NCBI GenBank assembly: GCA_040755315.1
Contig: JBFMBF010000002.1
Location: forward strand, 13,361-77,360
DNA length: 64,000 nucleotides
From: Candidatus Hadarchaeota archaeon
GTDB lineage: Archaea; Hadarchaeota; Hadarchaeia; Hadarchaeales; Hadarchaeaceae
Direction: 5' to 3'
Shown here: in pieces, positions 2,035 to 64,000 of the stretch
How positions within the stretch are numbered: position 1 is the stretch's first letter
How the letters are laid out: every line of letters begins with the position of its first letter
Notes under the pieces: generated by a model
Database searches by the model: none
What the model was told of the DNA's origin: nothing
Seen by the model: only the letters and a program-made list of their open reading frames with translations
Program-made: the position numbers and the translations under genes

Positions 2035-3073
2035 CTCCAGTGATTTTCGCCAGCTTTTTGGCCGCCTTCGGCTTCAGCCCCGCCTTCAAAACAGTGTAGC
2101 GGTCCGGCCTTATCTTGTGCGCTATGGTCAGAGCCTTCACGATGTGCTTCGCCGGGATCCCGAGTTCCCTGGCGCTCGTCGGCGCCCCGACTGCCTTCAA
2201 GGCTCCTCGAATGGCCTGCCAGTCCTCGCCGTGAAGGTATGCCATCATTATCGTCCCGACCCCGCACTGCTCCCCGTGAAGCGCGGGTTTTGGTGCTACA
2301 ATGTTCAGGGCGTGGCTGAAGAGGTGCTCCGCCCCGCTCGCCGGCCTGCTGCTCCCGGCTATCGCCATCGCCACGCTGCTGGAGATCAGGGCCTTGACCA
2401 CTTTCCTTACCCCCTCCTCAGTGTGCTTGGCGATGATTCCCGTATTCTCCATGACAATCTGCGTGCTCACCAACGAGAGAGTGCCCGCGAACTCGCTGTA
2501 CGGCTCCCCCTTCACCCGCTGGGCAAGCTGCCAGTCCCTTACGGCCGTGAGATTGGATACAAGATCCCCGCAGCCAGCCGCCAGAAGCCTGTGCGGCGCC
2601 TCCCTGATGACGTCAGTGTCGGCGATTATGGCCATGGGCGCCTGGGTTTCCACCGACGCTGGCCCACGCCCGCCCACGATAGACGCTCTGGAAGAAGCAA
2701 TCCCGTCGTGGGAGGCCGCGGTCGGTATGGAAACGAAGGGCTTTCCCTCCTGGAACGACGCCAGCTTGGCCACATCTATGGCGCGGCCGCCGCCGACACC
2801 GAGGTAAAAACTTGGGCCCCCTCCAAAGGACTTCCTGACGTCTTTCACGGCAGCGGTGTTTGCCTCCTTTATCAGCCTGTGCCCAACCCTGAACCCCGCC
2901 TTTCTCAACTGGTTTTCTATCTTTTTCCCAGTCAGGGCAAAAGTCGTCGGGTCGGCCACTATCGCGGCTTCCCTGCCGGCGCACAGCCTCCCGCAGACGT
3001 CCGCCACCTTTGACATTACTCCCGGCCCTATCCAGACCTCGCGGGGCAGCTCAATCTTCCTTGGTTCCTTCAA
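2024..3073 (-). CDS. egsA: NAD(P)-dependent glycerol-1-phosphate dehydrogenase
   Basis: 349 aa with a TTG start. It has iron-dependent-ADH-fold motifs (LGVGGGRAIDVAKL, PTAASHDGIAS, GAEHLFSH ... HGEQCGVG) typical of archaeal EgsA. Confidence 0.9.
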   Translation of the reverse strand: MKEPRKIELPREVWIGPGVMSKVADVCGRLCAGREAAIVADPTTFALTGKKIENQLRKAGFRVGHRLIKEANTAAVKDVRKSFGGGPSFYLGVGGGRAIDVAKLASFQEGKPFVSIPTAASHDGIASSRASIVGGRGPASVETQAPMAIIADTDVIREAPHRLLAAGCGDLVSNLTAVRDWQLAQRVKGEPYSEFAGTLSLVSTQIVMENTGIIAKHTEEGVRKVVKALISSSVAMAIAGSSRPASGAEHLFSHALNIVAPKPALHGEQCGVGTIMMAYLHGEDWQAIRGALKAVGAPTSARELGIPAKHIVKALTIAHKIRPDRYTVLKAGLKPKAAKKLAKITGVIP

Positions 3074-52399: not shown

Positions 52400-53263
52400 A
52401 TGGTGAGCAAAGCCGGGTTTATTGAAGCCGCGACTGAAATGATTCGCCGCGCCGAGACAAGATTGCCAGCGGACGTAACGCAAGCTTTGGAGGCTTGTTT
52501 GGTGCGTGAGCGGATGCCGGTCGCCAAGCTTCAGCTTAAGCTGGCGCTGAAAAACCTCCAGCTCGCGAAAAGGTCGGTCGCGCCCGTCTGCCAAGATACT
52601 GGGATATTCTCGTTTTTTGTGAAGGGTGGGGCCAACTTGGATTTCGATGTCGCCGCCGCTATCCGAAAATCAGTAGAGATTGCGACCAGCGAAGTTCCTC
52701 TCAGGGTCAACGCGGTGGATCCACTCACGCGAAAGCCTTACCCTACCAACACTGGGCCTTTTCAGCCAGCGGTCCACATCGAGCCCACGGATGGCCATGG
52801 ACTTGAAATAAACCTGCTTGTGAAGGGGGCCGGGACGGAAAACTACAGCAGGCTCTTCATGCTCAAGCCGACCGCTGGTGCCAAAGCCATACATCAGGCC
52901 CTTTCCATGGTGCTCACAGAGGCTGGCGGCAAGATATGTCCCCCTGTGGTGGCTGGGTTGGGTGTGGGTGGTAGCGCGGAAGTTGCCCCGATGCTTGCAA
53001 AAAAAGCCCTTTTAAGGTCAATCACCAAACGCAACCCCGACAGGAAGCTGGCGCGACTAGAGCGGGAGCTTGAGAAGTCGGCGAACCGGTTGGGAGTTGG
53101 TCCCATGGGGCTGGGCGGTCGATGTACTGTTTTGCGCGTGTTCGTCGAGCGCGCCGCCTGCCATACCGCGACACTTCCAGTGGCGATGGCGTTTCAGTGC
53201 TGGCCGGCCCGAAGGGCGAGGGCGCAGCTTGTGCGTGGGAAGCTGAAGGTGGTGGAGCCTTGA
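52400..53263 (+). CDS. Class I (Fe-S) fumarate hydratase / tartrate dehydratase family, alpha subunit
   Basis: 287 aa. 'PVCQDTGIFSFFV' and the overall pattern match the Fe-S hydro-lyase alpha subunit. Confidence 0.8.
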   Translation: MVSKAGFIEAATEMIRRAETRLPADVTQALEACLVRERMPVAKLQLKLALKNLQLAKRSVAPVCQDTGIFSFFVKGGANLDFDVAAAIRKSVEIATSEVPLRVNAVDPLTRKPYPTNTGPFQPAVHIEPTDGHGLEINLLVKGAGTENYSRLFMLKPTAGAKAIHQALSMVLTEAGGKICPPVVAGLGVGGSAEVAPMLAKKALLRSITKRNPDRKLARLERELEKSANRLGVGPMGLGGRCTVLRVFVERAACHTATLPVAMAFQCWPARRARAQLVRGKLKVVEP

Positions 53264-53796
53264 AGGTCCTCAGGCCCCCCCTGACTGACGATGTCGTAAG
53301 GGGGTTAAGGGCAGGAGATTTTGTGTTCATTTCAGGCAGGATCGTCACAGCTAGGGACAAAGTCTACTCAGCAGCGACCTCCGGTAAAAAGCCCCCGATT
53401 GACATGAATGGAGGAGTGATTTATCACTGCGGCCCCCTTGCGAAAAAAACAAAAAGGGGGTGGAAGATCATCTCGGCCGGCCCCACGACGAGCGCCCGCA
53501 TGGACAGCTTGCAAGAGGATTTCGTGAGAATTACCGGGGCGAAGGCGCTGGTCGGCAAAGGAGGGGTGGGGGAAGATGTGGCCAGGGGGATTTCTCGCTT
53601 GGGCTGCGTTTACTTGGCGTTTACTGGAGGTGCCGGGGTGCTCGCCGCCAGCATGATCAAAAAGGTAGAGAAGGTCGTCTGGCCGGAGCTTGGCGCCGCC
53701 GAGGCCATGTGGGTGTTACGGGTCGAAAAATTCGGGCCGCTGGTCGTCGCCATTGACACCCACGGGAAAAACTTGTACCTTCGCGGAAAAACCTGA
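53260..53796 (+). CDS. Class I fumarate hydratase family, beta subunit
   Basis: TTG 53260 overlaps the alpha stop (TTGA). 'LRAGDFVFISGRIVTARDKVY ... IYHCGP ... GPTTSARMD ... LVGKGG' is typical of the beta subunit. Confidence 0.8.
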   Translation: MKVLRPPLTDDVVRGLRAGDFVFISGRIVTARDKVYSAATSGKKPPIDMNGGVIYHCGPLAKKTKRGWKIISAGPTTSARMDSLQEDFVRITGAKALVGKGGVGEDVARGISRLGCVYLAFTGGAGVLAASMIKKVEKVVWPELGAAEAMWVLRVEKFGPLVVAIDTHGKNLYLRGKT

Positions 53797-56700
53797 TTAC
53801 CACTCTTCTTCTTTCGGTGCTTTTGGCATTTTTGGAGCACTTGGACCACTTGGGGCTTTTGGCATTTTTGGAATACCCATTTCAGGTTTTCTAAACTTCT
53901 TGAACGCTACCACAGCCACAACCGCAAACACTCCAACAGCTGCCCCGGCACCGATAATCACAATATCTGGTGCTCCCGTTGTCCCTCCACTAGGTGGTGG
54001 CGGAGATGAGCCTGGCAGAGTTGAGCTTGTTGAAATGTAGATGCTCAAGCTTTGAGTGTCTGTCTGTGAATTCGCATCCATAACTTTCACCGTGAAGTCG
54101 AATGTTTCTTGAGCGGATGGTATTCCTGAAATCGTTCCCCCTGTGGACAAGTTCAATCCAGCTGGGAGCGACCCGCTGTGTAAAGACCATGTATACGGAG
54201 GAGTCCCTCCGGTGGCAGATAGGTTCTGACTGTAAAGTGTGCCCACCGTCCCATTTGGAAGAGTTAGTGTCGTTATATTCGGTGATGAAGATGATGGTGC
54301 AGCGGTAACAGTCAGCGAGAAGACTTGAGATGACTGCGCACCGCCACCGCTTGCAGTTATGGTTATCTGGCAAGAGGAAGCTCCCGTCGCGGTGGTTATC
54401 CTCAACTTTGTTGTAAACGGAGGGGCACCGGAGGATGATCCCACCCATGACGCCGAAATATTGGATGGCAGCGCGTCGTACGACAAGGATGCAGAGGAAA
54501 CCCCGCTTGCTGTAACGCCCACATTCACATCTACGGACTCTCCAGCCACGACAGTAGCGCTGCTTGGAGAGATTGAAACGCTGATGGAGGCACTGCTTCC
54601 AGGCGACCCGGGCTGCTCAGGCGGCGGCGGAGGGGGTGGAGGAGGCGATGATTCTTGAACTGTCACAGATGCAGAGTTTTCCTGAGATACATTGGTGGCA
54701 TTGTCCCAAACCCTAACCTTGATGGTGTGGCCGCCAACACCAAGCCCTGAAACGGTGAAGTTAGCCGAAACATTTTCCCAGTTGCCGCTGTCCACCATTC
54801 GTTCGATGTTTTTCACCCCGCTCATGGCATCCGTCGCGGTCACGATGAAAGAGGCGTCTGCTCCAGAATTAATAGTTTGAGACAACGGGCTCAGGGCCGC
54901 ATGCGGGTTTGTTGCATCGACGCCGAACCATCTGCTCTCTGACCAAGGACCTTGGTTGCCAGCGTTGTCTATGCCGCGGACTCTTCGGTAGTAGTTGTTA
55001 TCGGGAAGCTCGGTTGGAATGGTGAAGATTACCGTATTGTCGCAAACGGCGTTGTCGTAAATCCACGCATTGTCGTAAATCATGTTTTCATGCGAGTTGT
55101 CGGTTGAAATCTGCAGCTGGTACCTCCATAGTTTTTTGTTGTCTGTGTCGTATATCTCTCCCCACATGAAAGTTGGGGCGTTGTCTTTGTGCCAGGTGTT
55201 TTCCAGCCACTGCGGGGGCTGGGCAGGCGCCGTGACATCAATGACAAAGCTCCAGACAAGTTCTGTGTAGTGCGGCCCGCCAGCGCCAGCCGAAATATTG
55301 TCGTACACCTGCAACTTCAAATAGTATGTATTTTCAGCAAGCTCGACTTGCATGAAGTTGTCGGTCCTGATCCTGATGCGTGTCCCGTCCCGGTTTTCAA
55401 GGTAACTATTTTCCGATTGGATAAGCATCGCCCCGGAAAATGTATTTTCGTTGTCAAGCCAAAGCCTGAAGTTCTCCAGGATGCCAGCGCCTTGGTCTGT
55501 GATCAATAACCACAACCGCGGGGTGTTGTCGCGTATGAATCCAATGTTTTCCAATGTCACGTAATTGTTTTCGCGTTTGTTCTCGTTTTCCTCGAATAGG
55601 GTGATTTGCAGCCTGTAGTTCTCAACTTTCGGCGGCTGCGTGTCAATAATCAGTGTCCTGTTTTCAGACCACTGTCCGATGTTGCCAGCGCCTTCTTCCG
55701 CCCTTACCCTCCAGTAATAAAGTCCATCCAGTAGCTCGGCGCCAAGCTGCAGGCTTGAGCTGTTAAGTCCCCCAGAATCATAAATTGCGCTGGAGAAGTC
55801 GTTGTCGTTGTCAACTACGGTCCAGTAGGTCACGCCGCTTTCGTTTGCGACCCCCAGCCAGTCGAAAAGTGGAGTATTGTCATCTTTTAGGAAGTTTACC
55901 GGAGATTCCAAAGTCGGCGCCGCTGGCGGGATTGTGTCTATTAACAACCACCTTGATGAGGAAATAGACGAGTTCCCAGAGTTGTCTGTGGCAACCACCC
56001 TCCAGTAAAGTATCCCGTTCGGCAGCTCGCTTACAGCGGTGTGTGAGTTGTCAAGGATGTTCTCATTGTCGTATACATACGGGAGTGTAAAGTCCGCGTC
56101 ATAGTCCAATTGGATCCGGTATTTAACTCCTGAAAAGTCATAAACGGCTGACCAAGTGAACGATGGAGTGTTGTCGTTTGTAAGGAGCCCATTTTGTGGT
56201 GAACTGAGGGATGGTGCCGGCGGGGCCTGCACGTCTACTTTGAAGCTTCTAGCAGATGTGAACCCACTCGCGTTGCCTGCATTGTCCCCTGATTGCACGG
56301 CCCAGTAGTATAGGTTGTCTGTTAGAGCTTCAATTTCTGAAAGCATGTACAGGTTTTCTTTAATGTTGGACTTTCTGCGGACGACAAGAGCGAGGGCGTT
56401 GTCTTGGGATATGACAAGCTCGTAGTTATCTGCATTTTCAACCGTTGACCACCTGAAAGTCGGTTTTGAGGTGTTTTCCGCGCTCCCTTCGGCAGGCGAC
56501 ACTAATGTCGTGCACGCCGGTTTTTGGGTATCTATTATTAACTTTCTGTTGTCGCTCCAGTTTTCATTGCCAACAATGTCAGAGACTTTGACTCCCCAGA
56601 TGTATGTATTGTCTGGTAGCGCATCCCCGTCCGGAATTGTTTGTTCAGAAATACTCAAACCGCTGTACTGTCTGGCGACAGTGTTGTCAAGTCTCCACAC

Positions 56701-59700
56701 AAAAACGCCGTACTGGACTTCACTGATGTCCACCACCGCTTGCCAGTCGAAGCGTGGGGTGTTGTCGTTTGTGAACGAGTTGTTCTCAGGCGATAGTGGA
56801 GTTGGTTTCAGAACTTTCGTGTCAATGTTGAACCAACTATTGCTTGACGAGTTTTCATTTCCAGCGGTATCTCTAACAAATACCCTCCAGTACCAGAGGC
56901 CGTCGGCCAGGGAGTTCTCCGTGTGTGTGTCGAAGTTGTCGCGGTTTTCCGTCAGCTCGGAGTTGTCGTAGATCGGCGAGGAGAAATCATTGTCATTGTC
57001 TACCTGCAGCCTGTAGTTTTCATTGTTTTCCGACTTCGTCCAGCGGAAGACAGGGGTGCTGTCAGTGACGGTCTCATTAAGCGAGGGTTGTAGGAGCGTG
57101 GGGGCGGCGAGAACCGTATCGAGTCTGAACCGGCCCGCAGCCAGACCCCCGCTGTTCCCCGCTCCATCAATTGTTTTAACCCTCCAGTACCACACATTGT
57201 CATAAGTTAAGGAGTTTTCCATGGTGTGCTCGCTCGGGGCGATGTTTTGTTTGTTGTAGATAGGTGAGCTGAAGTCGTTATTGTCGTCTACTTGGAGAGT
57301 GTACGTGACGCCAGAGGTGTCACCGACGCTGCTCCAGTTGAAAAACGGTGTTGGATCGTTGATGTTTTCTCCGTTTTCTGGTTTTTCAAGTGTCGGGGTG
57401 CCTGGGGGGGCGATGTCAATAATAATCCGCCAGTTATCGGACCACTGCCCAAAGTTCTTGGCATTGTCCATGGCCCTCACCCGCCAGTAGTAAATTCCGG
57501 TGGCTGGGAAGTTGTAGGTGAAGTTGTTGTCATTATTCTCATTTTCGTAAGGCGAGGCGAAACTTGGGTCATCGTCAATCTGGATGGCGTAGTTTTCAAA
57601 CCCTGGGGCCCATTCATCGACATTTTCCACCCATGTGAATGTTTGCGCCGCGCGGTTGTCGGCGGTGTTGTTAGGAGGGGACATTAGTGTTGGTTTTCCT
57701 GGAGCCTTGGTGTCAATGACAAGCCTGTAATAATTGGACCAGCCGCTGAAGTTCCTCGCTCGGTCGTACATGCAGACGCGCCAGTAGTAAACGCCGTCGG
57801 CCAAGCCAGCAGCCAGTGTGTTCTCGTTGTCCAAGATGTTTGCGATTGTCACTGGTGATGAGAAGTCGTTGTCGTTGTCTATCTGTAAAGAGTAGTTCTC
57901 AGGTGTTTCTGGCTGTGTCCACTTGAAAGTTGGGGTGTTGTCATTCTCAAACTTGTTGTTGTCCGGCGAAACGGGCGAGGGTGTGCTCGGCGCAGCGTTG
58001 TCGAGATTGAATGTCCAGTTGTCAGACCACCGCACATTGCCTGCGCGGTCCTGGGAGCCGACCCGCCAGTACCAGGTACCTGTCGCGTTCAGCTCATTTT
58101 CCTGTGGCAACTGGAGTGAGGTGCCGGAGATGTTGTCGTTGTCGTAGCGTGGCGAGGCGTAGTTGGAGTCGTCGTCAACTTGCAGCCTGTAAGCCACGAA
58201 GTTAGTGTCACTTCCACCCATCCACCTGAAGCTCGGGCGGTTGTCATTTTCATAGTTTCCTGTTGTTGGCGAGAGCAGGTAAACAGGCGATGGAAAGGCC
58301 GTGTCCACCGTGAATCGATTTTCTCTCCATGATCCGACGTTACCATTGTCGTCCTGCTCGCGTACCCTCCAGTACCACAGGCCTTCGGGCAATGCGTCCG
58401 CGGGGTGGGTGTCAAAGTTGTCGCGGTTTTCATTTATGCTCAAATCATTGTAGTATGGAGAGGAGAAGTCCTCGTCGTTGTCCACCTGCAGGTGGTATGT
58501 GATTGTTGCCGCGCCGGCCCCTGGGAAGGCCGTCGTCCAGCTGAAATATGGCGTGTTGTCAGAGATAAAATAATTGTTCTCAGGGGTGAGAAGAGGCGAA
58601 GGCCCGCCAGTAAAGGCAGTGTTGACGGTGAACTGCCAGGTGTTTTCGGCCTTGTTTTCGTTTTCTGTGCCGGCGCTGTCCATGCTCCACACGCTCCAGT
58701 AGTAAGTCCCGTCCGGATAACCTGGAGAGGGCTTCGTCCACTTGTTGTCCCCCACCACAACCACATTATCTATCGGTGAGGACAAGTCGTTGTCGTTGTC
58801 GACCATTATCCTGTGCTTGGAAGCGTTTGTCCCGTTCTCCCACTGGAACTGTGGCGTGTTGTCCCTGATAGGTACATTGTTCTCCGGGTAAAACAGGGCG
58901 GGCTTCCCAACATAGCTGTAGGTGAACTTCCAGTTGTCCGACCAGTTTTCTGGGTTTATGCCGTCCCTTGCCGAGACCCGCCAGTACCAGGTACCTGTCG
59001 CGTTCAGCTCATTTTCCTGTGGCAACCGGAGTGAGGTGCCGGAGATGTTATTGTTGTCGTAGCGAGGCAAGGAGAAGTCGTTGTCGTTGTCCACCTGTAG
59101 GTGGTATGTGACGCCATTCGGGTCGTTGACAGTGAGCCATGTGAACATTGGGCGGTTGTCCGCCACTACCGAGCTGTTTTTGGGGGAGTATAAAGTCGGG
59201 GCGCGGACGTAGCTCCATATCACATAAACGGGAGACCACGGGCTCGTGTTTCCAGCCCTGTCAATTGCCATGACTCTCCAATAATAGTTGTCTTCCGGAA
59301 GAACGTTCTCGGGGTGCAGATCAAAGTTGTCAAAGTTGTCTTTGAGGATGTTGTCGTAGATCGGCGAGGAGAAGTCGTTCTCGTTGTCTATGACCAATCT
59401 GTACCTCTCATACCTTGAGCTGCTGAGCAAGAAATCGACTGTAACTGCTTGGTTTTCTGTAACGGTGACGCCGGACACGTTGTCACGGTAGCCGTATGCG
59501 CTAGCTCTCAAAGTGTAGTTGCCCGGTGAACTCGACATGGTATAAAATCCATTTTCGTCAGTGATTCCAGTCACGCTTTTTTCAACAATCGTCACAGTCG
59601 CCCCCCGTATCCCGGCCAGTGTTGAAACGTCCCGCACGTAGCCTTTTATTACAGTTCCTCCCCAGGTTTGTGCCATTGTGACTGCGTCGTACGCGTCGAT

Positions 59701-62700
59701 CCGGCCGTACCCGTACCGATCATCTTTGCCAGCTGTGCCTAGGTCAACCGCTGTCCCCTGCAAAATTTGATAAACATCGCTGACCGTCAATGATGGGTTT
59801 GCTTTCAACATCAAAGCCACTGTGCCAGCAACGTGCGGCGTCGCCATGGATGTTCCGCTATATGACGCCCAAGAGCCGCCAGGAATGGAAGAGTAAACAG
59901 ACACGCCGGGTGCGCTGAAGTCAGGCTTTATGTAGCTGTTCGGCCAGTCGCTTGGTGGGGAAGACCACCAGGCTTTGTATACAGTTTCCCCGCTGCTGAA
60001 CGAGGCGATCACGTCACTTGAGTCGGTTGCGCCAATGCCAAAAGCGTCGTAGACGTTGCCAGGTGAACTAGACGATCCATAGTAGTCGTTCCCAATGGCG
60101 GCAACGGGCACCACACCATTTGCCGCCATATTTCTAATTGGTTCTATCAGTGTGTCGTAGTAACCGTACGCACCAAAAGACATGCTTACAACATGGGCCT
60201 TCTGACCGGCAGGGTTGCCATATTGGTTCACCGGGCTTACCGCCCACTGCATCCCGGCTATGACCTGACTGAAACTCCCGCTACCGTAAGGCAGAACCAG
60301 GGCATGCATGAGTTTTGCGCCTGGTGCGACGCCAATCGCAGTCCCACTCGTGTTATCTCCGAGGACTGTGCCCGACGTGTGGGTGCCGTGGTCATCTGTA
60401 TCATGCGGTGTGGAACTCAAGACTCTGCTGCCTAAATCATCAAACTCTATCCAGCCACCGGGATAGGTGGGATCCTCAGCGTTGTCCGTCAACATCTTGC
60501 CTGTGAGGTCCGGGTGCGAGATGCTGACTCCAGTATCTAGAACTGCCACTCTGATCCCGTCCCCGTTGTCCCCCATCGCCCAAACCTGCGGCGCTCTTAT
60601 TTTATCCAGACCCCAAGCGTTTGTTTGAAGTGTCCCGATGTTTTCAGATTCTGGTTTCGGTGCTTGAATAATGAAATCTTCATGGACTTGTTCCACTTCT
60701 TCTAGAGATACGAGTTCGTTCAGGGTGTCAACATTTACCTCGGCAACTACGGCGTTTGCCAGCCAGAACTGGTTCAAAATTCTGGCGCCCTGCCTGCGTA
60801 GAACATTAGTGGCGTTGGCCTGCAAGTTTTGTGCGTGGTTTTTCATCACTTCGGCAGCTTTGTCGGAGCTAACACCACTCAAATCAGCTGACTTAAGCCT
60901 GACAACTATTTTAATTGTTTCGCCTGGTCGAGCCGATTCAAGCTTACGCGCCAGTCCAGGGGCCAGTTTCTCGCGTGCAGACTTCTTTTGCTGTTTTTCA
61001 CCTGCTCCTGCGGTGTCTGCAGACTGAAATGCCGTAATGCCGTTATTGGCACCAAATGATATTGTGGTGCCAGATGTGCTCCCGCTGCTTGAAAAGCCCG
61101 TAAAACTTGATGATGACAAAACTTCGCTCGAGACCCAGTTATCTATGTTTTCGTTCCATCCGAAGTAGGGGGTATTGTCGTCAAAGCCGGAACCGTTTTC
61201 AGGAGAGATCAAAACAGGTGCGCCAGGCGGAATCGTGTCAATGACGAACCACCTAGTTTCTGACCAGCTACCGGTGTTCCCAGCGGAATCGTATGCGCGC
61301 ACTCGCCAGTAGTAGCGGTTGTCCTGGAGGGCCTCCCCGCCCGGAATGTAGTACTCAGATACAGTTATGCCTGAATATGTGCGTGGGGTGCTGAAGTTAG
61401 GCATGTTGTCGATCTGGAGAGTGTAGTTGGGCCCTGTGGAATCTGAAACTGGTCCCCAGTCAAAGAAGGGGGTGTTGTCATTCTGATGGTTGTCGTTCTC
61501 TGGGGAAACAAGCGCCGGGATCCCTGGGGACGTGGAGTCACTACCACAGCTGGCATCAGCTATTCCCGGGGCCGTTTCGGCGTTGTTGGCGCGATCCTTG
61601 GATGTGGTGTAAAACTGATAGAAACCGTCCCCGTTTGGTGGGGTGAAAGTCCACGACCACGGGCTTGCCAGATCGTTGTCGTTTTCCGTCCAATTACTCC
61701 ACCAAACGTTGTCTGTGGAATAACGGTACCAGAGCGTCGCGCGCTCAACCCCGCTTGGCGCGTCGCTCGCGGTGGCCGTGATTGTGAAAGATGGGGAGTT
61801 TTGCCAGTAGGGGATGATTTGGTTCACACTTGAACTTGGAGGAGTTACATCTACTGTTATCATCCTGTATGCAGACCAGTTCTCGTTGTTCAAGTTGTCC
61901 CTGGCCATAACTCGCCAGTAGTAAACATTGTCTGGGAGTTGATTTTCAATCTCAACACTTACTCCGGTTACATTGCCATTATCGTAAATGATGCTTGTGA
62001 ATGCCGAGTTGCGTGATATTTGAAGCCTGTAAACAACTGGACTTGATGGGTCCGCCACAGCGGCCCAGCTGAAGGTCGGGGCATTGTCGTTCTCGTACTT
62101 CCCATCAGTAGGTGATGACAGGGTTGGTGCAGTGACAGTGTTATCCACCCTCAGCCACCAAGTGTCCGACCAGTTTATGCCAACGTTGCCCGCGTTGTCA
62201 ACGGCGCGAACCCGCCAGTAGTAGATGTTGTCAACCAGAGGAATGCCCGACGTGTAGCTTACAGCTGTCGTGTTTTCCCGGATTTCCGGTGAGGAAAAGC
62301 TCAGGTCGTTGTCAACCCATATTTCATATCTTGCCGCGCCAGCCACGGCCGACCACTGGAAGCTTGGAGTGTTGTCCCTCGTGTTTTCACCCGGCGCCGG
62401 CGAGATGAGCAGTGGGGCGTCTGTGGGGGGTTGGGTATCCACAGAAAACTTGTAGATAGATGACCAGCTTCCGACATACCCCCAACTGTCGCTGGCGCGA
62501 ACCCGCCAGTAGTATGAGTTTTCCCCAAGCGCATTTCCAGCAGGCAGAGTGATGGTGTTGTCAGTCATCCCGGAGTTTTCGTAAAATGGAGATCCGCACC
62601 CAGGGTCATTGTCAAGCTGGAAGTCGTAGGTTACACCGGAAAAGTCAAGTGGCCTGGACCACGTGAATGTAGGGGTGTTGTCGTTTGTGAACGAGTTGTT

Positions 62701-63999
62701 TTCAGGAGTTGCGAGAGTTGGCGGTGATGGGGCGCTAGTGTCAATTGTTATCCGCCTGTTTTCAATCGACCAACCGAAGTTGCCAAAGTTGTCCACCGCC
62801 GCCGCCCTCCAGTACCAGATGCCGTCGGGGATACTGTTTTCGGGTGTGTGCTGGTTGTCCGTTATGCCTACTTTGTAGTAAATATATGGCGCGGTGAAGT
62901 TCGGTTCATTGTCTATCTGGGCGGCGTAAGTTACCGGACTTGAGATGTCTGTGACCTGGGTCCAGCCGAAGGTCGGTGTGTTGTCGTTAGTTAGGATACT
63001 GTCCAATGGAAAAAGTAGCGATGGGGGAGAGACTCGCGTGTCTGTTTTGAATCTTCTCGTTTCGGACCATGCGCCCCAATTCCATGCATCGTCCCTCGCT
63101 TTGGCCCTCCAGAACCAGATGTTGTCCGAAATTTCAGGGACAGTAAGGAAATTGTCGGTCGTTCTGCCCAAGTTCAGGTTTTGTGTGAAACCTTCGTCCG
63201 TGGAGTAGTCTATTTCATACCCCGCGGCCCCGGGAACATTTACCCAGCTGAAGGTGGGCGTGTTGTCGGCCAAGTTTTCGTTGTCTGCGGGAGATAATAG
63301 GGTGGGAGCCACCGCTGGCGGGGAGGTGTCAATGTTTATTTGTCGGGGTTGAGTCCAAGACCCAGCATTTCCAACGTTGTCAACGGCCCTGACTTTCCAA
63401 TACAAAGTGCCATCTGGCAAAGAAATATTCTCGGCCAGAGTGTAATTGATGTATTGGGTAACGTCGGTCAGCCACTGATACCATTCGCCCTCTTTCCAGT
63501 AGCTCCAATACGCAACTCGGGTGTCCGGGATGTTTTGGACTTTTGCCTGCACTGGCTCGGAAAAGTTCACATCGTTGTCTATCCAGATCTCATAAGTCAC
63601 CGGTGGGCTTTGGAGATCCGTCGTGTAAATCCAAGTAAAAATTGGAGTTGAATCATTTATGGTTTGGTCATTGTCTGGTTTGGTTAGGGACGGCGTGCCA
63701 GGCGGAGTGGCGTCTATGATGAAGCTACCTTCGTTGCCCCACGCAAAGTTTGGCACTCCGTCGGCGACCAAAACCTTCCAGTAATAGGTTCCGTCTGACA
63801 GTTCAACAGTTGATGTATAGTTTGAAACTAGCGTCCCATTCTCATTTTCGATTATTGGACCGGAGTAGCTTCCTCCATATACTGTCCACAAAGACCCCCC
63901 GACGTTAACTGTGACGTATTGGGACGGGCCTGAAACAAACGGATTGTCGTCCACGTACAGATAGTATCTGATTGGCCCAACTTGGTCCGTCACGTCTGA
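53797..63999 (-). CDS. Giant membrane-anchored surface protein: FN3-like repeat array with an embedded S8 subtilase (5' end outside the window)
   Basis: A single ORF of more than 3,398 codons is still open at the window edge; the codons upstream of GTG 63993 are sense. It has about 23 repeats of about 100 aa, an internal I9 + S8 + CarboxypepD_reg cassette, a Pro9 hinge, Ig-like/He_PIG-like domains, one C-terminal TM helix and a 34-aa tail. Confidence 0.85.
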   Translation of the reverse strand, partial: SDVTDQVGPIRYYLYVDDNPFVSGPSQYVTVNVGGSLWTVYGGSYSGPIIENENGTLVSNYTSTVELSDGTYYWKVLVADGVPNFAWGNEGSFIIDATPPGTPSLTKPDNDQTINDSTPIFTWIYTTDLQSPPVTYEIWIDNDVNFSEPVQAKVQNIPDTRVAYWSYWKEGEWYQWLTDVTQYINYTLAENISLPDGTLYWKVRAVDNVGNAGSWTQPRQINIDTSPPAVAPTLLSPADNENLADNTPTFSWVNVPGAAGYEIDYSTDEGFTQNLNLGRTTDNFLTVPEISDNIWFWRAKARDDAWNWGAWSETRRFKTDTRVSPPSLLFPLDSILTNDNTPTFGWTQVTDISSPVTYAAQIDNEPNFTAPYIYYKVGITDNQHTPENSIPDGIWYWRAAAVDNFGNFGWSIENRRITIDTSAPSPPTLATPENNSFTNDNTPTFTWSRPLDFSGVTYDFQLDNDPGCGSPFYENSGMTDNTITLPAGNALGENSYYWRVRASDSWGYVGSWSSIYKFSVDTQPPTDAPLLISPAPGENTRDNTPSFQWSAVAGAARYEIWVDNDLSFSSPEIRENTTAVSYTSGIPLVDNIYYWRVRAVDNAGNVGINWSDTWWLRVDNTVTAPTLSSPTDGKYENDNAPTFSWAAVADPSSPVVYRLQISRNSAFTSIIYDNGNVTGVSVEIENQLPDNVYYWRVMARDNLNNENWSAYRMITVDVTPPSSSVNQIIPYWQNSPSFTITATASDAPSGVERATLWYRYSTDNVWWSNWTENDNDLASPWSWTFTPPNGDGFYQFYTTSKDRANNAETAPGIADASCGSDSTSPGIPALVSPENDNHQNDNTPFFDWGPVSDSTGPNYTLQIDNMPNFSTPRTYSGITVSEYYIPGGEALQDNRYYWRVRAYDSAGNTGSWSETRWFVIDTIPPGAPVLISPENGSGFDDNTPYFGWNENIDNWVSSEVLSSSSFTGFSSSGSTSGTTISFGANNGITAFQSADTAGAGEKQQKKSAREKLAPGLARKLESARPGETIKIVVRLKSADLSGVSSDKAAEVMKNHAQNLQANATNVLRRQGARILNQFWLANAVVAEVNVDTLNELVSLEEVEQVHEDFIIQAPKPESENIGTLQTNAWGLDKIRAPQVWAMGDNGDGIRVAVLDTGVSISHPDLTGKMLTDNAEDPTYPGGWIEFDDLGSRVLSSTPHDTDDHGTHTSGTVLGDNTSGTAIGVAPGAKLMHALVLPYGSGSFSQVIAGMQWAVSPVNQYGNPAGQKAHVVSMSFGAYGYYDTLIEPIRNMAANGVVPVAAIGNDYYGSSSSPGNVYDAFGIGATDSSDVIASFSSGETVYKAWWSSPPSDWPNSYIKPDFSAPGVSVYSSIPGGSWASYSGTSMATPHVAGTVALMLKANPSLTVSDVYQILQGTAVDLGTAGKDDRYGYGRIDAYDAVTMAQTWGGTVIKGYVRDVSTLAGIRGATVTIVEKSVTGITDENGFYTMSSSPGNYTLRASAYGYRDNVSGVTVTENQAVTVDFLLSSSRYERYRLVIDNENDFSSPIYDNILKDNFDNFDLHPENVLPEDNYYWRVMAIDRAGNTSPWSPVYVIWSYVRAPTLYSPKNSSVVADNRPMFTWLTVNDPNGVTYHLQVDNDNDFSLPRYDNNNISGTSLRLPQENELNATGTWYWRVSARDGINPENWSDNWKFTYSYVGKPALFYPENNVPIRDNTPQFQWENGTNASKHRIMVDNDNDLSSPIDNVVVVGDNKWTKPSPGYPDGTYYWSVWSMDSAGTENENKAENTWQFTVNTAFTGGPSPLLTPENNYFISDNTPYFSWTTAFPGAGAATITYHLQVDNDEDFSSPYYNDLSINENRDNFDTHPADALPEGLWYWRVREQDDNGNVGSWRENRFTVDTAFPSPVYLLSPTTGNYENDNRPSFRWMGGSDTNFVAYRLQVDDDSNYASPRYDNDNISGTSLQLPQENELNATGTWYWRVGSQDRAGNVRWSDNWTFNLDNAAPSTPSPVSPDNNKFENDNTPTFKWTQPETPENYSLQIDNDNDFSSPVTIANILDNENTLAAGLADGVYYWRVCMYDRARNFSGWSNYYRLVIDTKAPGKPTLMSPPNNTADNRAAQTFTWVENVDEWAPGFENYAIQIDDDPSFASPYENENNDNNFTYNFPATGIYYWRVRAMDNAKNFGQWSDNWRIIIDIAPPGTPTLEKPENGENINDPTPFFNWSSVGDTSGVTYTLQVDDNNDFSSPIYNKQNIAPSEHTMENSLTYDNVWYWRVKTIDGAGNSGGLAAGRFRLDTVLAAPTLLQPSLNETVTDSTPVFRWTKSENNENYRLQVDNDNDFSSPIYDNSELTENRDNFDTHTENSLADGLWYWRVFVRDTAGNENSSSNSWFNIDTKVLKPTPLSPENNSFTNDNTPRFDWQAVVDISEVQYGVFVWRLDNTVARQYSGLSISEQTIPDGDALPDNTYIWGVKVSDIVGNENWSDNRKLIIDTQKPACTTLVSPAEGSAENTSKPTFRWSTVENADNYELVISQDNALALVVRRKSNIKENLYMLSEIEALTDNLYYWAVQSGDNAGNASGFTSARSFKVDVQAPPAPSLSSPQNGLLTNDNTPSFTWSAVYDFSGVKYRIQLDYDADFTLPYVYDNENILDNSHTAVSELPNGILYWRVVATDNSGNSSISSSRWLLIDTIPPAAPTLESPVNFLKDDNTPLFDWLGVANESGVTYWTVVDNDNDFSSAIYDSGGLNSSSLQLGAELLDGLYYWRVRAEEGAGNIGQWSENRTLIIDTQPPKVENYRLQITLFEENENKRENNYVTLENIGFIRDNTPRLWLLITDQGAGILENFRLWLDNENTFSGAMLIQSENSYLENRDGTRIRIRTDNFMQVELAENTYYLKLQVYDNISAGAGGPHYTELVWSFVIDVTAPAQPPQWLENTWHKDNAPTFMWGEIYDTDNKKLWRYQLQISTDNSHENMIYDNAWIYDNAVCDNTVIFTIPTELPDNNYYRRVRGIDNAGNQGPWSESRWFGVDATNPHAALSPLSQTINSGADASFIVTATDAMSGVKNIERMVDSGNWENVSANFTVSGLGVGGHTIKVRVWDNATNVSQENSASVTVQESSPPPPPPPPPEQPGSPGSSASISVSISPSSATVVAGESVDVNVGVTASGVSSASLSYDALPSNISASWVGSSSGAPPFTTKLRITTATGASSCQITITASGGGAQSSQVFSLTVTAAPSSSSPNITTLTLPNGTVGTLYSQNLSATGGTPPYTWSLHSGSLPAGLNLSTGGTISGIPSAQETFDFTVKVMDANSQTDTQSLSIYISTSSTLPGSSPPPPSGGTTGAPDIVIIGAGAAVGVFAVVAVVAFKKFRKPEMGIPKMPKAPSGPSAPKMPKAPKEEEW
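53902..53964 (-). other. C-terminal transmembrane anchor of the giant protein
   Basis: The hydrophobic helix 'IVIIGAGAAVGVFAVVAVVAF' is followed by KKFRK. Confidence 0.8.
54035..54283 (-). other. He_PIG-like 'putative Ig' domain inside the giant ORF
   Basis: 'LPNGTVGTLYSQNLSATGGTPPYTWSLHSGSLPAGLNLSTGGTISGIPSAQETFDFTVKVMDANSQTDTQSLSI' is the classic L-P-x-G-x-x-G-x-x-Y ... GG-x-x-P-Y-x-[WF] ... LP-x-GL-x-L ... G-x-[IL]-S-G-x-P pattern. Confidence 0.75.
54619..54645 (-). other. Pro9 hinge inside the giant ORF
   Basis: Nine consecutive proline codons ('SSPPPPPPPPPEQPGSPG') separate the repeat region from the C-terminal Ig-like domains. Confidence 0.9.
58060..58149 (-). repeat. 90-nt tract, copy 1, 87/90 identical to 58975..59064
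   Basis: GACCCGCCAGTACCAGGTACCTGTCGCGTTCAGCTCATTTTCCTGTGGCAAC... encodes 'RYDNDNISGTSLQLPQENELNATGTWYWRV'. The first 51 nt are identical between the two copies. Confidence 0.85.
58975..59064 (-). repeat. 90-nt tract, copy 2, 87/90 identical to 58060..58149
   Basis: It encodes 'RYDNNNISGTSLRLPQENELNATGTWYWRV' and lies exactly 915 nt (three repeat units) from copy 1. The flanks are diverged. Confidence 0.85.
59425..59660 (-). other. Carboxypeptidase-regulatory-like beta-sandwich domain inside the giant ORF
   Basis: 'GTVIKGYVRDVSTLAGIRGATVTIVEKSVTGITDENGFYTMSSSPGNYTLRASAYGYRDNVSGVTVTENQAVTVDFLL' matches the CarboxypepD_reg pattern. Confidence 0.7.
59690..60620 (-). other. S8 subtilisin-like serine protease catalytic domain inside the giant ORF
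   Basis: The catalytic triad contexts are D in 'IRVAVLDTGV' (60535..60537), H in 'DDHGTHTSGT' (60388..60390) and S in 'SGTSMATPHVAG' (59848..59850). Confidence 0.9.
60665..60915 (-). other. Peptidase inhibitor I9-like propeptide region inside the giant ORF
   Basis: The stretch 'TIKIVVRLKSADLSG ... ARILNQFWLANAVVAEVNVDTLNELVSLEEVEQVHEDFIIQA' has an alpha/beta pattern typical of subtilase propeptides. Confidence 0.6.
61135..63999 (-). repeat. N-terminal block of about 8.5 FN3-like repeats (period about 290-315 nt)
   Basis: The recurrent consensus is 'P.L.SP.....DNTPTF.W ... Y.LQ[IV]DND.[DN]FSSP ... L.DG.YYWRVRA.D.AGN...WS....F.IDT..P'. The units are diverged at the DNA level. One SGV-type Ig-like domain is intercalated. 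Confidence 0.8.
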
Positions 64000-64000
64000 C

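What the first reader, a model, noticed from the sequence alone, without database searches (positions are those of the whole stretch)
59413..61134. Subtilase zymogen cassette (I9 propeptide, S8 domain, CarboxypepD_reg) nested inside a single FN3-like repeat
The repeat beginning 'VLISPENGSGFDDNTPYFGWNENIDNW' (W at 61135..61137) stops after its first conserved strand.

The sequence resumes 574 codons later with 'YERYRLVIDNENDFSSPIYDN ... EDNYYWRVMAIDRAGNTSPWSPVYVIW' (from 59412). That is exactly the missing remainder of the repeat consensus. For comparison, an intact unit reads '...QTFTWVENVDEWAPGFENYAIQIDDDPSFASP ... YYWRVRAMDNAKNFGQWS'.

The intervening segment holds a Ser/Gly-rich linker, an I9-like propeptide, a complete S8 catalytic domain with its D/H/S triad, and a CarboxypepD_reg-like sandwich.

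My inference is a domain-in-loop insertion rather than a beads-on-a-string arrangement. I9 propeptides are normally removed autocatalytically. Maturation would therefore cut the polypeptide inside a folded domain. The >1,000-residue N-terminal repeat block would then be held only by non-covalent complementation of the split sandwich, a logic similar to SEA/GAIN autoproteolysis. I know of no description of such an arrangement in an archaeal surface protease.
Basis: partly seen in the sequence, partly recalled or inferred. Interest (0 to 1): 0.8.

Follow-up and report, generated by a model that had tools for sequence, protein, structure and literature searches.

The report
Subtilase zymogen nested inside Ig-like repeat
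A 4,129-residue surface protein of a Hadarchaeota archaeon carries a complete protease precursor inserted into a loop of one of its 30 Ig-like repeats; the normal self-activating cut of that protease would sever the protein chain, an arrangement I found nowhere else.

Summary
A profile of the protein's own repeats matches residues 927-954 to profile positions 1-28 and residues 1531-1591 to positions 31-88. With the 574 residues between them removed, the two pieces give one ungapped full-length repeat (85 bits). That repeat is as well conserved as intact repeats.

The insert is a Ser/Gly-rich linker, an I9-like propeptide, an S8 domain with an intact D/H/S triad and oxyanion Asn, and a CarboxypepD_reg domain. 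In more than 100 relatives this same module sits at the N-terminus, directly behind a signal peptide. Here the signal peptide is replaced by the linker.

The gene is NCBI MEW6221857.1 (Candidatus Hadarchaeota MAG). A second assembly independently covers the 5' junction.

No other protein I could fetch has the cassette inside a repeat, but my searches were partly blind to giant proteins.

The one usable structure prediction did not place the N-terminal half-repeat. That stretch had no alignment rows and the catalytic domain was also poorly modelled, so fold-level pairing is untested.

The rest is inference: that autoprocessing nicks the chain, and that the split sandwich then holds or releases the distal 1,650 residues.

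Verdict: real domain-in-loop insertion, a new variant of known kinds, moderately interesting.

The parts
53797..63999 (-). Window part (3,400 aa plus stop) of a 4,129-aa surface protein. It corresponds to residues 730-4129 of NCBI MEW6221857.1, 'Ig-like domain-containing protein [Candidatus Hadarchaeota archaeon]'.
   Evidence: Continuous ORF. Identical over all 3,400 residues to P0476. P0476 has 29 repeat hits plus one split repeat. Pfam Big_13 and Ig_Rha78A_N.
61135..61221 (-). N-terminal piece of the split repeat (aa 927-955, 'APVLISPENGSGFDDNTPYFGWNENIDNW'). By analogy with intact repeats it holds the first two strands.
   Evidence: Repeat HMM positions 1-28, E 6e-8. Matches 8 of 9 family-consensus positions. 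AlphaFold pLDDT about 30, with no alignment rows here.
61009..61134 (-). Ser/Gly/Thr-rich linker (aa 956-997). It occupies the place of the signal peptide found in relatives.
   Evidence: Sequence. Maximum hydropathy over aa 956-1010 is 0.51, against a hydrophobic segment in 141 of 166 relatives. pLDDT 25-30.
60664..61008 (-). I9-like propeptide (aa 998-1112).
   Evidence: Pfam Inhibitor_I9 at 17.9 bits, below the 21.2 cut-off. phmmer alignment runs into the propeptides of pro-subtilisin E (from residue 24) and pro-Tk-subtilisin (from residue 25). Modelled at pLDDT 87-94 with the order beta-alpha-beta-beta-alpha-beta. Best Foldseek matches are pro-forms: ProN-Tk-SP, fervidolysin, pro-subtilisin E.
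60565..60663 (-). Junction between propeptide and catalytic domain (aa 1113-1145, 'PKPESENIGTLQTNAWGLDKIRAPQVWAMGDN'). This is the region where autoprocessing is expected.
   Evidence: Position inferred from the alignment to pro-subtilisin E, whose propeptide ends just before 'AQSVPYGISQIKAP' (the cleavage site of subtilisin E is from general knowledge). Cleavage was not tested.
59704..60564 (-). Peptidase S8 catalytic domain (aa 1146-1432). D1155 is at 60535-60537, H1204 at 60388-60390, N1304 at 60088-60090 and S1384 at 59848-59850.
   Evidence: PF00082 at 162-166 bits against a cut-off of 21.8. Motif positions. 30-35% identical to subtilisins and Tk-subtilisin in the PDB, E 3e-35.
59425..59649 (-). 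CarboxypepD_reg (transthyretin-like) beta-sandwich (aa 1451-1525).
   Evidence: PF13620 at 54.9 bits against a cut-off of 32.3. pLDDT about 90. Foldseek match to the transthyretin-like domain of human carboxypeptidase D, 5aq0, rmsd 1.1 A over 77 columns.
59413..59424 (-). Four-residue connector 'SSSR' (aa 1526-1529) between CarboxypepD_reg and the rest of the repeat.
   Evidence: Sequence. The last CarboxypepD_reg strand ends at aa 1525 and the first repeat strand starts at aa 1532 in the model.
59203..59412 (-). C-terminal piece of the split repeat (aa 1530-1599, 'YERYRLVIDNENDFSSPIYDN...YYWRVMAIDRAGNTSPWSPVYVIWSYVR').
   Evidence: Repeat HMM positions 31-88, E 3e-16. Pfam Ig_Rha78A_N profile positions 36-96 of 105. 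Matches 18 of 22 family-consensus positions. Four strands modelled, block-mean pLDDT mostly 73-93 with one dip to 53.
53902..53964 (-). C-terminal transmembrane anchor (aa 3346-3366), followed by a Lys-rich tail ending in KEEEW.
   Evidence: Sequence. The same TM-plus-'KEEW' ending occurs in the related giant protein P0165.

Best explanation
The gene encodes a roughly 4,100-residue stalk of about 30 Ig-like (Big_13 / Rha78A-N type) repeats, anchored in the membrane at its C-terminus, from a Hadarchaeota archaeon. A complete secreted-subtilase precursor was inserted into the variable loop after the second strand of repeat 16. The precursor consists of propeptide, S8 domain and CarboxypepD_reg domain. 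Its own signal peptide is replaced by a flexible linker of about 40 residues.

Shown:
- The insertion splits one repeat exactly.
- Both halves keep the family signature.
- The cassette has every catalytic residue.
- The cassette has no export signal or start of its own, so it can only be made and exported as part of the giant protein.

Inferred: the repeat still folds, with strands A-B supplied from before the insert and the remaining strands from after it, so the protease hangs off the stalk as a side branch. The long linker on one side and the 4-residue connector on the other close the loop geometrically. The propeptide acts as folding chaperone and temporary inhibitor, as in other subtilases. 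Its autocatalytic cleavage, somewhere in aa 1113-1135, would nick the chain. This yields a distal chain (about 1,650 residues of repeats, strands A-B, linker and propeptide) and a proximal membrane-anchored chain (protease, CarboxypepD_reg, the remaining strands, 13 repeats, anchor).

My best guess is that the two chains stay together through the split sandwich, giving a surface-tethered protease for extracellular protein breakdown. Release of the distal block is the main alternative outcome.
For: - Split-repeat geometry: complementary HMM coordinates, and a single 85-bit hit for the spliced unit.
- Conservation: 26 of the 32 most conserved family columns are kept. The columns were defined on 255 repeats from other organisms. 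This is the 75th percentile of intact repeats.
- Loop site: the interrupted segment varies from 6 to 15 residues in the family.
- Tolerance of inserts: other members carry inserts of about 145 residues in another loop (P0407, P0436). A repeat in this protein carries a 26-residue insert.
- Cassette identity and origin: Pfam, PDB and Foldseek matches. In relatives the cassette starts 20-100 residues from the N-terminus, and 141 of 166 have a hydrophobic signal-like segment just before it. The window linker has none.
- Propeptide fold modelled confidently.
- Not an assembly artefact: an independent NCBI contig (JBFMFF010000821.1, 99.8% nucleotide identity, 3 mismatches) spans the 5' junction. A second contig carries the cassette up to one residue before the 3' junction.
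- Theme in the lineage: related Hadarchaeales repeat proteins carry S8 or C25 peptidase domains at one end.
- Composition of the insert is close to the rest of the gene: GC 0.525 against 0.52, GC3 0.54 against 0.60-0.65. There is no sign of very recent foreign origin.
Against: - The AlphaFold model of aa 924-1600 left the N-terminal half-repeat unstructured (pLDDT about 30). It folded the C-terminal half without it. The run had no alignment rows over that half and also failed on the S8 core, so this is weak evidence.
- The arrangement is known from one lineage only (two near-identical populations). Conservation across species cannot be used to argue that the split domain is functional.
- If the insertion is recent, the good conservation of the halves proves nothing.
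- Cleavage of the propeptide is assumed. Some subtilases keep the cleaved prodomain bound (CspB, PMC3567191).
- The annotated N-terminus of the full protein ('MSFYFVSSIGAGVWPS') is not a convincing signal peptide. Export is therefore inferred from the C-terminal anchor and from family resemblance.
Confidence: 0.6

Rival explanations
1. The cassette did land inside a repeat, but the repeat was destroyed. The 29-residue N-piece is now just part of a linker. The C-piece is a relic, or packs on the CarboxypepD_reg domain. Functionally the protein is beads on a string, and propeptide cleavage simply releases the distal 1,650 residues or leaves them held only by propeptide binding.
For: AlphaFold did not dock the N-piece and still gave strands with block-mean pLDDT mostly 73-93 for the C-piece alone. 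No second lineage shows the arrangement being maintained. Foldseek found two-sandwich proteins (DUF3823 family, 4fxt and 4yok) aligning over about 200 columns. This may correspond to CarboxypepD_reg plus the C-piece, but I did not check which query residues they cover.
Against: Both pieces keep the family signature at the level of intact repeats: 8 of 9 and 18 of 22 consensus positions, 85 bits when spliced. An Ig-like sandwich lacking its first two strands would expose its core. The model run was uninformative for the N-piece by design, since it had no rows there.
Confidence: 0.27
2. The nested insertion and the fold are as described, but the propeptide is never cut. Alternatively it is cut and stays bound permanently, as in CspB or PCSK9. 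The chain or complex then stays intact, and the protease is latent or regulated by displacement of the propeptide.
For: Prodomain retention after autoprocessing is documented for CspB and noted for PCSK9 (PMC3567191). Internal pro-S8 modules occur in other giant proteins. P0126 has two, and P0123 has three with a propeptide region plus a weaker fourth match. A mid-chain propeptide is therefore not lethal to function.
Against: The catalytic apparatus is complete. The propeptide-catalytic junction resembles that of autoprocessing subtilisins. Most characterised subtilases cleave and then degrade the propeptide (general knowledge).
Confidence: 0.1
3. Assembly or gene-calling artefact: two genes, a repeat protein and a secreted protease, were joined by mis-assembly across repeats.
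For: Repeat-rich genes are prone to mis-assembly. The second assembly breaks exactly at the 3' junction.
Against: The 5' junction is present in an independent contig with 3 SNPs. The reading frame is continuous for 3,400 codons. The two repeat pieces resume in exact register, which a random join would not give. The cassette lacks the signal peptide that free-standing relatives have.
Confidence: 0.03

Closest known systems
Secreted or cell-envelope subtilases with an N-terminal propeptide and C-terminal beta-sandwich domains. Examples are fervidolysin (1r6v), Tk-SP (3afg), Tk-subtilisin, and the widespread S8 + CarboxypepD_reg family found in actinomycetes, Chloroflexota, Bathyarchaeia, Desulfurococcales and haloarchaea.
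   Same: Same module order: propeptide, S8, beta-sandwich. The closest relatives are 44-56% identical over the whole cassette. Pro-forms are the best structural matches.
   Different: In those proteins the module is at the N-terminus, directly behind a signal peptide. Removing the propeptide therefore costs nothing but the propeptide. Here the module is internal, lacks a signal peptide, and sits inside another domain.
Nested-domain surface adhesins, for example the pneumococcal pilus tip adhesin RrgA and related Gram-positive pilus adhesins, in which a functional domain is inserted into an Ig-like stalk domain (from memory, not checked here).
   Same: A stalk of Ig-like sandwiches in which one sandwich is interrupted in a loop by a functional module that projects sideways.
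   Different: The inserted modules there are vWA or thioester domains that are not cleaved. Here the insert is a protease zymogen whose maturation would break the chain. The host is an archaeon.
Domain insertions within subtilases: the PA domain in C5a peptidase, lactocepin and plant subtilases (from memory), and the jellyroll insertion in CspB (PMC3567191).
   Same: Subtilases readily take part in nested architectures.
   Different: The nesting is the other way round. There the extra domain sits in a loop of the S8 domain; here the whole S8 precursor sits in a loop of another domain.
SEA, GAIN and Notch-HD type proteins: chains that are cut within a folded module and stay together non-covalently (from memory).
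   Same: If the inference holds, a single chain becomes two chains held by shared beta-sheet structure, with possible regulated release of the distal part.
   Different: SEA and GAIN cut themselves at a strained motif inside the sandwich. Here the cut would be made by a subtilase at its own propeptide junction, hundreds of residues from the sandwich. No SEA or GAIN sequence features are present, and nothing of this was tested.
Giant proteins with internal pro-S8 modules (P0126 with two, P0123 with three or four), and the clostridial CspBA fusion (PMC3567191).
   Same: A propeptide-bearing S8 module in the middle of a long chain.
   Different: In P0126 and P0123 the modules appear to follow one another along the chain. 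I did not test their flanks for half-domains. None of the 474 search-derived proteins has the cassette between the two halves of a repeat.

Membership tests
Peptidase S8 (subtilase) | Sequence match to the S8 catalytic domain above the curated threshold | tested here: met
   PF00082 at 162-166 bits against a cut-off of 21.8, full profile 1-288. PDB subtilisins at E 3e-35.
Peptidase S8 (subtilase) | Catalytic triad in the order Asp-His-Ser with the family motifs, plus the oxyanion-hole Asn | tested here: met
   D1155 (DTG), H1204 (HGTH) and S1384 (GTSMATPH). N1304 aligns with the Asn of 'AAAGNEG' in subtilisin E.
Peptidase S8 (subtilase) | Proteolytic activity | not testable with these tools
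   Needs expression and assay.
Inhibitor I9 propeptide | Sequence match above the Pfam threshold | tested here: not met
   PF05922 at 17.6-17.9 bits against a cut-off of 21.2, E 0.005.
Inhibitor I9 propeptide | Beta-alpha-beta-beta-alpha-beta fold directly upstream of the S8 domain, homologous to known subtilisin propeptides | tested here: met
   phmmer alignments extend into the propeptides of pro-subtilisin E and pro-Tk-subtilisin. The model has that element order at pLDDT 87-94. Pro-form structures are the top Foldseek hits, though with low TM-scores because the S8 core was poorly modelled.
Inhibitor I9 propeptide | Autocatalytic cleavage from the catalytic domain | not testable with these tools
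   Inferred from family behaviour only.
CarboxypepD_reg (transthyretin-like) domain | Sequence match above threshold and a matching fold | tested here: met
   PF13620 at 54.9 bits against a cut-off of 32.3. Matches 5aq0 at rmsd 1.1 A, TM 0.88 normalised to the target.
Big_13 / Ig_Rha78A_N Ig-like repeat (the split unit) | The two flanks together cover one repeat profile, in order and without overlap | tested here: met
   Own HMM positions 1-28 and 31-88. The spliced unit covers 1-88 in one hit at 85 bits. Pfam Ig_Rha78A_N covers positions 36-96 of 105 on the C-piece, below its cut-off when taken alone.
Domain-in-loop (nested) insertion | The insertion point falls in a loop, not in a strand | tested here: met
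   It lies in the only strongly length-variable segment of the N-terminal half, 6-15 residues long in 255 repeats. The first strand after the insert starts 2-3 residues downstream in the model. The strand assignment for the N-piece rests on alignment only.
Domain-in-loop (nested) insertion | The two flanks fold into one domain in three dimensions | tested here: inconclusive
   The single-sequence model of the spliced unit had pLDDT 39. The nested-segment model left aa 924-956 at pLDDT about 30, with no alignment rows there and a poor S8 core.
SEA / GAIN-type autoproteolytic two-chain modules | Self-cleavage at a conserved motif inside the folded module, with the chains remaining associated | not tested
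   No such motif was expected or looked for. The predicted cut is in the inserted protease module. This is a resemblance of outcome only, not membership.

The most novel reading that the evidence does not exclude
Propeptide autoprocessing turns the single 4,129-residue chain into two chains whose only lasting link is an Ig-like sandwich built from strands of both. Activation of the protease would then be mechanically coupled to retention or shedding of a 1,650-residue distal stalk. This would be a protease-gated tether switch with no described counterpart in archaeal or bacterial surface proteins.
Probability: 0.2. Interest if true: 0.8.

Novelty: new variant of a known kind. Interest (0 to 1): 0.55.

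Why it matters
Nested domains and stalk-mounted proteases are both known. What is new is a zymogen whose obligatory maturation cut lies topologically inside another folded domain.

If the halves do complement each other, this is a natural split-domain system made by an ordinary protease rather than by a specialised self-cleaving motif. It would give a simple model for how two-chain surface assemblies and shedding switches can arise by a single insertion event.

It also shows how an uncultured archaeal lineage (Hadarchaeota) mounts proteases on giant surface proteins. That bears on their proposed protein-scavenging lifestyle.

Practically, the public annotation ('Ig-like domain-containing protein') hides the protease. 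Pieces of the gene are also filed under a bacterial MAG.

Tried and rejected
1. AlphaFold on the spliced repeat as a single sequence gave pLDDT 39, which is uninformative.

Without those rows MAFFT would not place whole repeats or N-halves correctly. The last job therefore ran with cassette rows and C-half rows only.

3. Search for the same insertion elsewhere:
- The cassette query, the spliced-flank query, the 1,183-aa query and the representative search yielded 474 proteins. None has the cassette between repeat halves.
- The genome contigs and metagenome-contig scans found only cassette relatives of at most 48% identity.
- Caveats: the search for homologous proteins returned only hits about 0.63-1.75 times the query length. 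The whole-protein query timed out. The representative library hid even this protein inside a 50% cluster. Giant nested homologues could therefore have been missed.

4. Exact look-ups of neighbouring genes and of P0476 found nothing on record.

5. Recent horizontal origin of the insert: composition and codon usage differ only slightly from the rest of the gene. This cannot date the event.

6. tRNA and Rfam scans of the window found nothing.

7. Literature searches for a protease precursor nested in an Ig-like or FN3 domain found no precedent. The searched library is limited.

Full report
**What is there**

The minus strand of the window carries one uninterrupted reading frame from 53797 to beyond 63999, 3,400 codons in the window. 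Other genes in the window are archaeal: aCPSF1, archaeal RecJ, ATP-dependent DNA ligase.

A cluster look-up on a fragment found later shows that the whole protein is public. It is NCBI MEW6221857.1, 4,129 aa, 'Ig-like domain-containing protein [Candidatus Hadarchaeota archaeon]', on an 88-kb contig. It is identical to the window translation over all 3,400 residues, and window residue 1 is its residue 730.

Most of the protein is a repeat of about 95 residues that matches Pfam Big_13 and Ig_Rha78A_N. The C-terminus holds a transmembrane segment and a Lys-rich tail ending in KEEEW.

**Checking the observation**

I built a 94-position HMM from 17 intact repeats of this protein.
- Residues 927-954 match positions 1-28 (E 6e-8).
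- Residues 1531-1591 match positions 31-88 (E 3e-16).
- Apart from the window edge and two degenerate C-terminal units, every other hit is full length.

With the insert removed, the two pieces give a single ungapped hit over positions 1-88 at 85.2 bits. Two intact repeats that were also outside the training set score lower, at 61.6 and 63.7 bits.

I defined the 32 most conserved family columns on 255 repeats from other organisms. The split repeat matches 26 of them. Intact repeats average 24.7 with SD 2.4, which puts the split repeat at the 75th percentile. The N-piece matches 8 of 9 columns and the C-piece 18 of 22.

The interrupted segment lies between the conserved W of 'TPxFxW' and the next strand. 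It is the length-variable part of the N-terminal half, 6-15 residues long in the family. A sub-type of repeat with a longer loop here resembles the split one. It reads 'VENVDEW-APGF-ENY' in this protein and 'VVDNW-APGY-ENY' in P0380.

**The insert**

In order, the insert contains:
- A Ser/Gly/Thr-rich stretch with no hydrophobic segment (aa 956-997).
- A propeptide (aa ~998-1112).
- The S8 catalytic domain. PF00082 covers aa 1146-1432 at E 2e-48. D1155, H1204 and S1384 are in the canonical motifs, and N1304 aligns with the oxyanion Asn.
- A CarboxypepD_reg sandwich (aa 1451-1525, E 1e-14).
- Four residues, 'SSSR', before the repeat resumes.

The Pfam I9 match is below threshold, at 17.9 bits against 21.2. 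However, phmmer alignments to pro-subtilisin E and pro-Tk-subtilisin run into their propeptides. The AlphaFold model gives this stretch pLDDT 87-94 with the beta-alpha-beta-beta-alpha-beta order typical of subtilisin propeptides. The best Foldseek matches are pro-forms: ProN-Tk-SP, fervidolysin and pro-subtilisin E. Their TM-scores are low because the S8 core was modelled badly. The CarboxypepD_reg part superimposes on the transthyretin-like domain of carboxypeptidase D at 1.1 A.

**Where the cassette comes from**

The same propeptide-S8-CarboxypepD_reg module is common in bacteria and archaea. The best relatives are 52-56% identical. In them the module starts 20-100 residues from the N-terminus. 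In 141 of 166 complete relatives a hydrophobic, signal-like segment lies directly before it. The window protein has the non-hydrophobic linker in that place.

The cassette therefore looks like a free-standing secreted protease precursor that lost its signal peptide on insertion. It can now be made and exported only as part of the giant protein.

Composition gives no sign of very recent foreign origin. GC is 0.525 against 0.52 for the repeats, and GC3 is somewhat lower.

**Is it real?**

A 1,421-nt contig of another NCBI assembly (GCA_040752175.1, binned as Zixiibacteriota) is 99.8% identical to window 61017-62437. It crosses the 5' junction.

A second fragment from that assembly covers aa 1086-1528 with two substitutions. 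It ends one residue before the 3' junction, so the 3' junction is not independently confirmed.

The exact resumption of the repeat register, the continuous frame and the missing signal peptide all argue against a chimeric join.

**Relatives and other architectures**

None of the 474 proteins fetched by the searches has the cassette between repeat halves. What I did find:
- S8 at the N-terminus followed by intact repeats of this family (P0428, P0462, P0125).
- A C25 peptidase domain followed by the same repeats in Hadarchaeales (P0420; P0407 is a related fragment with the same Pfam set).
- Chains with several pro-S8 modules in tandem. P0126 has two. P0123 has three with a propeptide region plus a weaker fourth match.
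- A related 3,729-aa giant protein, P0165. It has the same non-repeat domain, the same C-terminal ending and no protease. A 349-residue module sits between intact repeats at roughly the corresponding place.

The repeat family does tolerate loop insertions. P0407 and P0436 have inserts of about 145 residues at profile positions 47-57. One repeat of this protein has a 26-residue insert there.

These negatives are weaker than they look, for four reasons.
- The word-indexed search returned only hits 0.63-1.75 times the query length.
- The whole-protein query timed out.
- The representative library hid this very protein inside a 50% cluster.
- The two contig scans use exact peptide words.

**Structure**

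A single-sequence prediction of the spliced repeat was useless, at pLDDT 39.

The last job used the nested segment aa 924-1600 with six trimmed cassette relatives and 44 C-terminal half-repeats. It had no rows over the N-terminal half.

Result, mean pLDDT 59:

| Region | pLDDT |
|---|---|
| Propeptide | 87-94 |
| CarboxypepD_reg | about 90 |
| C-terminal half-repeat (four strands) | block means mostly 73-93, one block at 53 |
| S8 core | 25-68 |
| N-terminal half-repeat | about 30, no strands |

Because the model failed even on the subtilisin fold and had no information on the N-piece, I read this as inconclusive. It is still the only structural result, and it does not support pairing.

**Mechanism**

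Shown: one repeat is split exactly in a loop, by a complete and apparently functional zymogen that has no export signal of its own.

Inferred:
- The sandwich still forms from both pieces. The linker of about 40 residues on one side and the 4-residue connector on the other make loop closure easy.
- The protease projects from the stalk.
- The propeptide is cleaved, as in most subtilases. This nicks the chain at about aa 1113-1135.

After that there are three outcomes: the chains stay together through the sandwich, the distal 1,650 residues are shed, or the cleaved propeptide stays bound as in CspB (PMC3567191). I favour the first, but only weakly.

The SEA/GAIN comparison is an analogy of outcome, not a family relationship.

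**Verdict**

The finding is real. The domain-in-loop reading is well supported at the sequence level. The consequences for maturation are plausible but untested.

It is a new variant of known kinds: nested domains, and proteases mounted on Ig-like stalks. It is known so far from a single Hadarchaeota lineage.

Noticed in passing
Full-length protein P0476 (MEW6221857.1) residues 1-16, upstream of the window end at 64000: The annotated N-terminus, 'MSFYFVSSIGAGVWPS', runs straight into the first repeat and is not a convincing signal peptide. Yet the C-terminal anchor with its Lys-rich tail implies that the bulk of the protein is exported. The start codon may be mis-called. The related P0165 has a clear hydrophobic segment near its N-terminus.
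   Followed up: partly
window 53800-53901 (-), aa 3367-3400; also the C-terminus of P0165: After the transmembrane segment both giant proteins end in a Lys/Pro-rich tail finishing with 'KEEEW' or 'KEEW'. This may be a conserved C-terminal sorting or anchoring motif.
   Followed up: no
window 63418-63495 (-), aa ~169-194 of the window protein: One otherwise normal repeat carries a 26-residue Trp/Tyr-rich insertion ('RVAYWSYWKEGEWYQWLTDVTQYINY'). It sits at the same loop (profile positions ~47-57) where P0407 (aa 961-1107) and P0436 (aa 419-562) carry inserts of about 145 residues of unknown type. This loop looks like a second hot spot for nested insertions in the family.
   Followed up: partly
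P0165 aa 1613-1961; P0350 and P0361 (fragments from GCA_040752175.1): Related giant proteins contain a module made of short Trp-rich tandem units ('W..VE.W.G.V...'). In P0165 it lies between intact repeats, at roughly the position where this protein has the protease. The function of the module is unknown.
   Followed up: no
L036 (JBFMFF010000821.1), P0259 and P0475: Fragments of this archaeal gene are deposited in a MAG labelled Candidatus Zixiibacteriota. They are 99.8% identical at the nucleotide level and about 99.5% at the protein level. This is probably mis-binning of short contigs from the same study.
   Followed up: partly
P0420 and P0407 (Candidatus Hadarchaeales); P0428 and P0462: Other Hadarchaeales-type repeat proteins carry a C25 (gingipain-like) cysteine peptidase domain, or an S8 domain, ahead of a run of the same repeats. 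Proteases on Ig-like stalks appear to be a recurring theme in this lineage.
   Followed up: partly
P0123 (5,373 aa) and P0126 (2,129 aa): These proteins have several complete pro-S8 cassettes in one chain. In P0123 they lie at 1122-1557, 1897-2311 and 2643-3069, with a weaker match at 226-623. Each of the three strong matches extends into the propeptide region. How such internal propeptides are processed is an open question. I did not test whether any of them is nested in another domain.
   Followed up: partly
window 53122-53796 (+) against 53797 (-): A 224-codon plus-strand ORF ends at the base immediately before the stop codon of the giant minus-strand gene. If that ORF is a real gene, the two are convergent with no intergenic space.
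   Followed up: no
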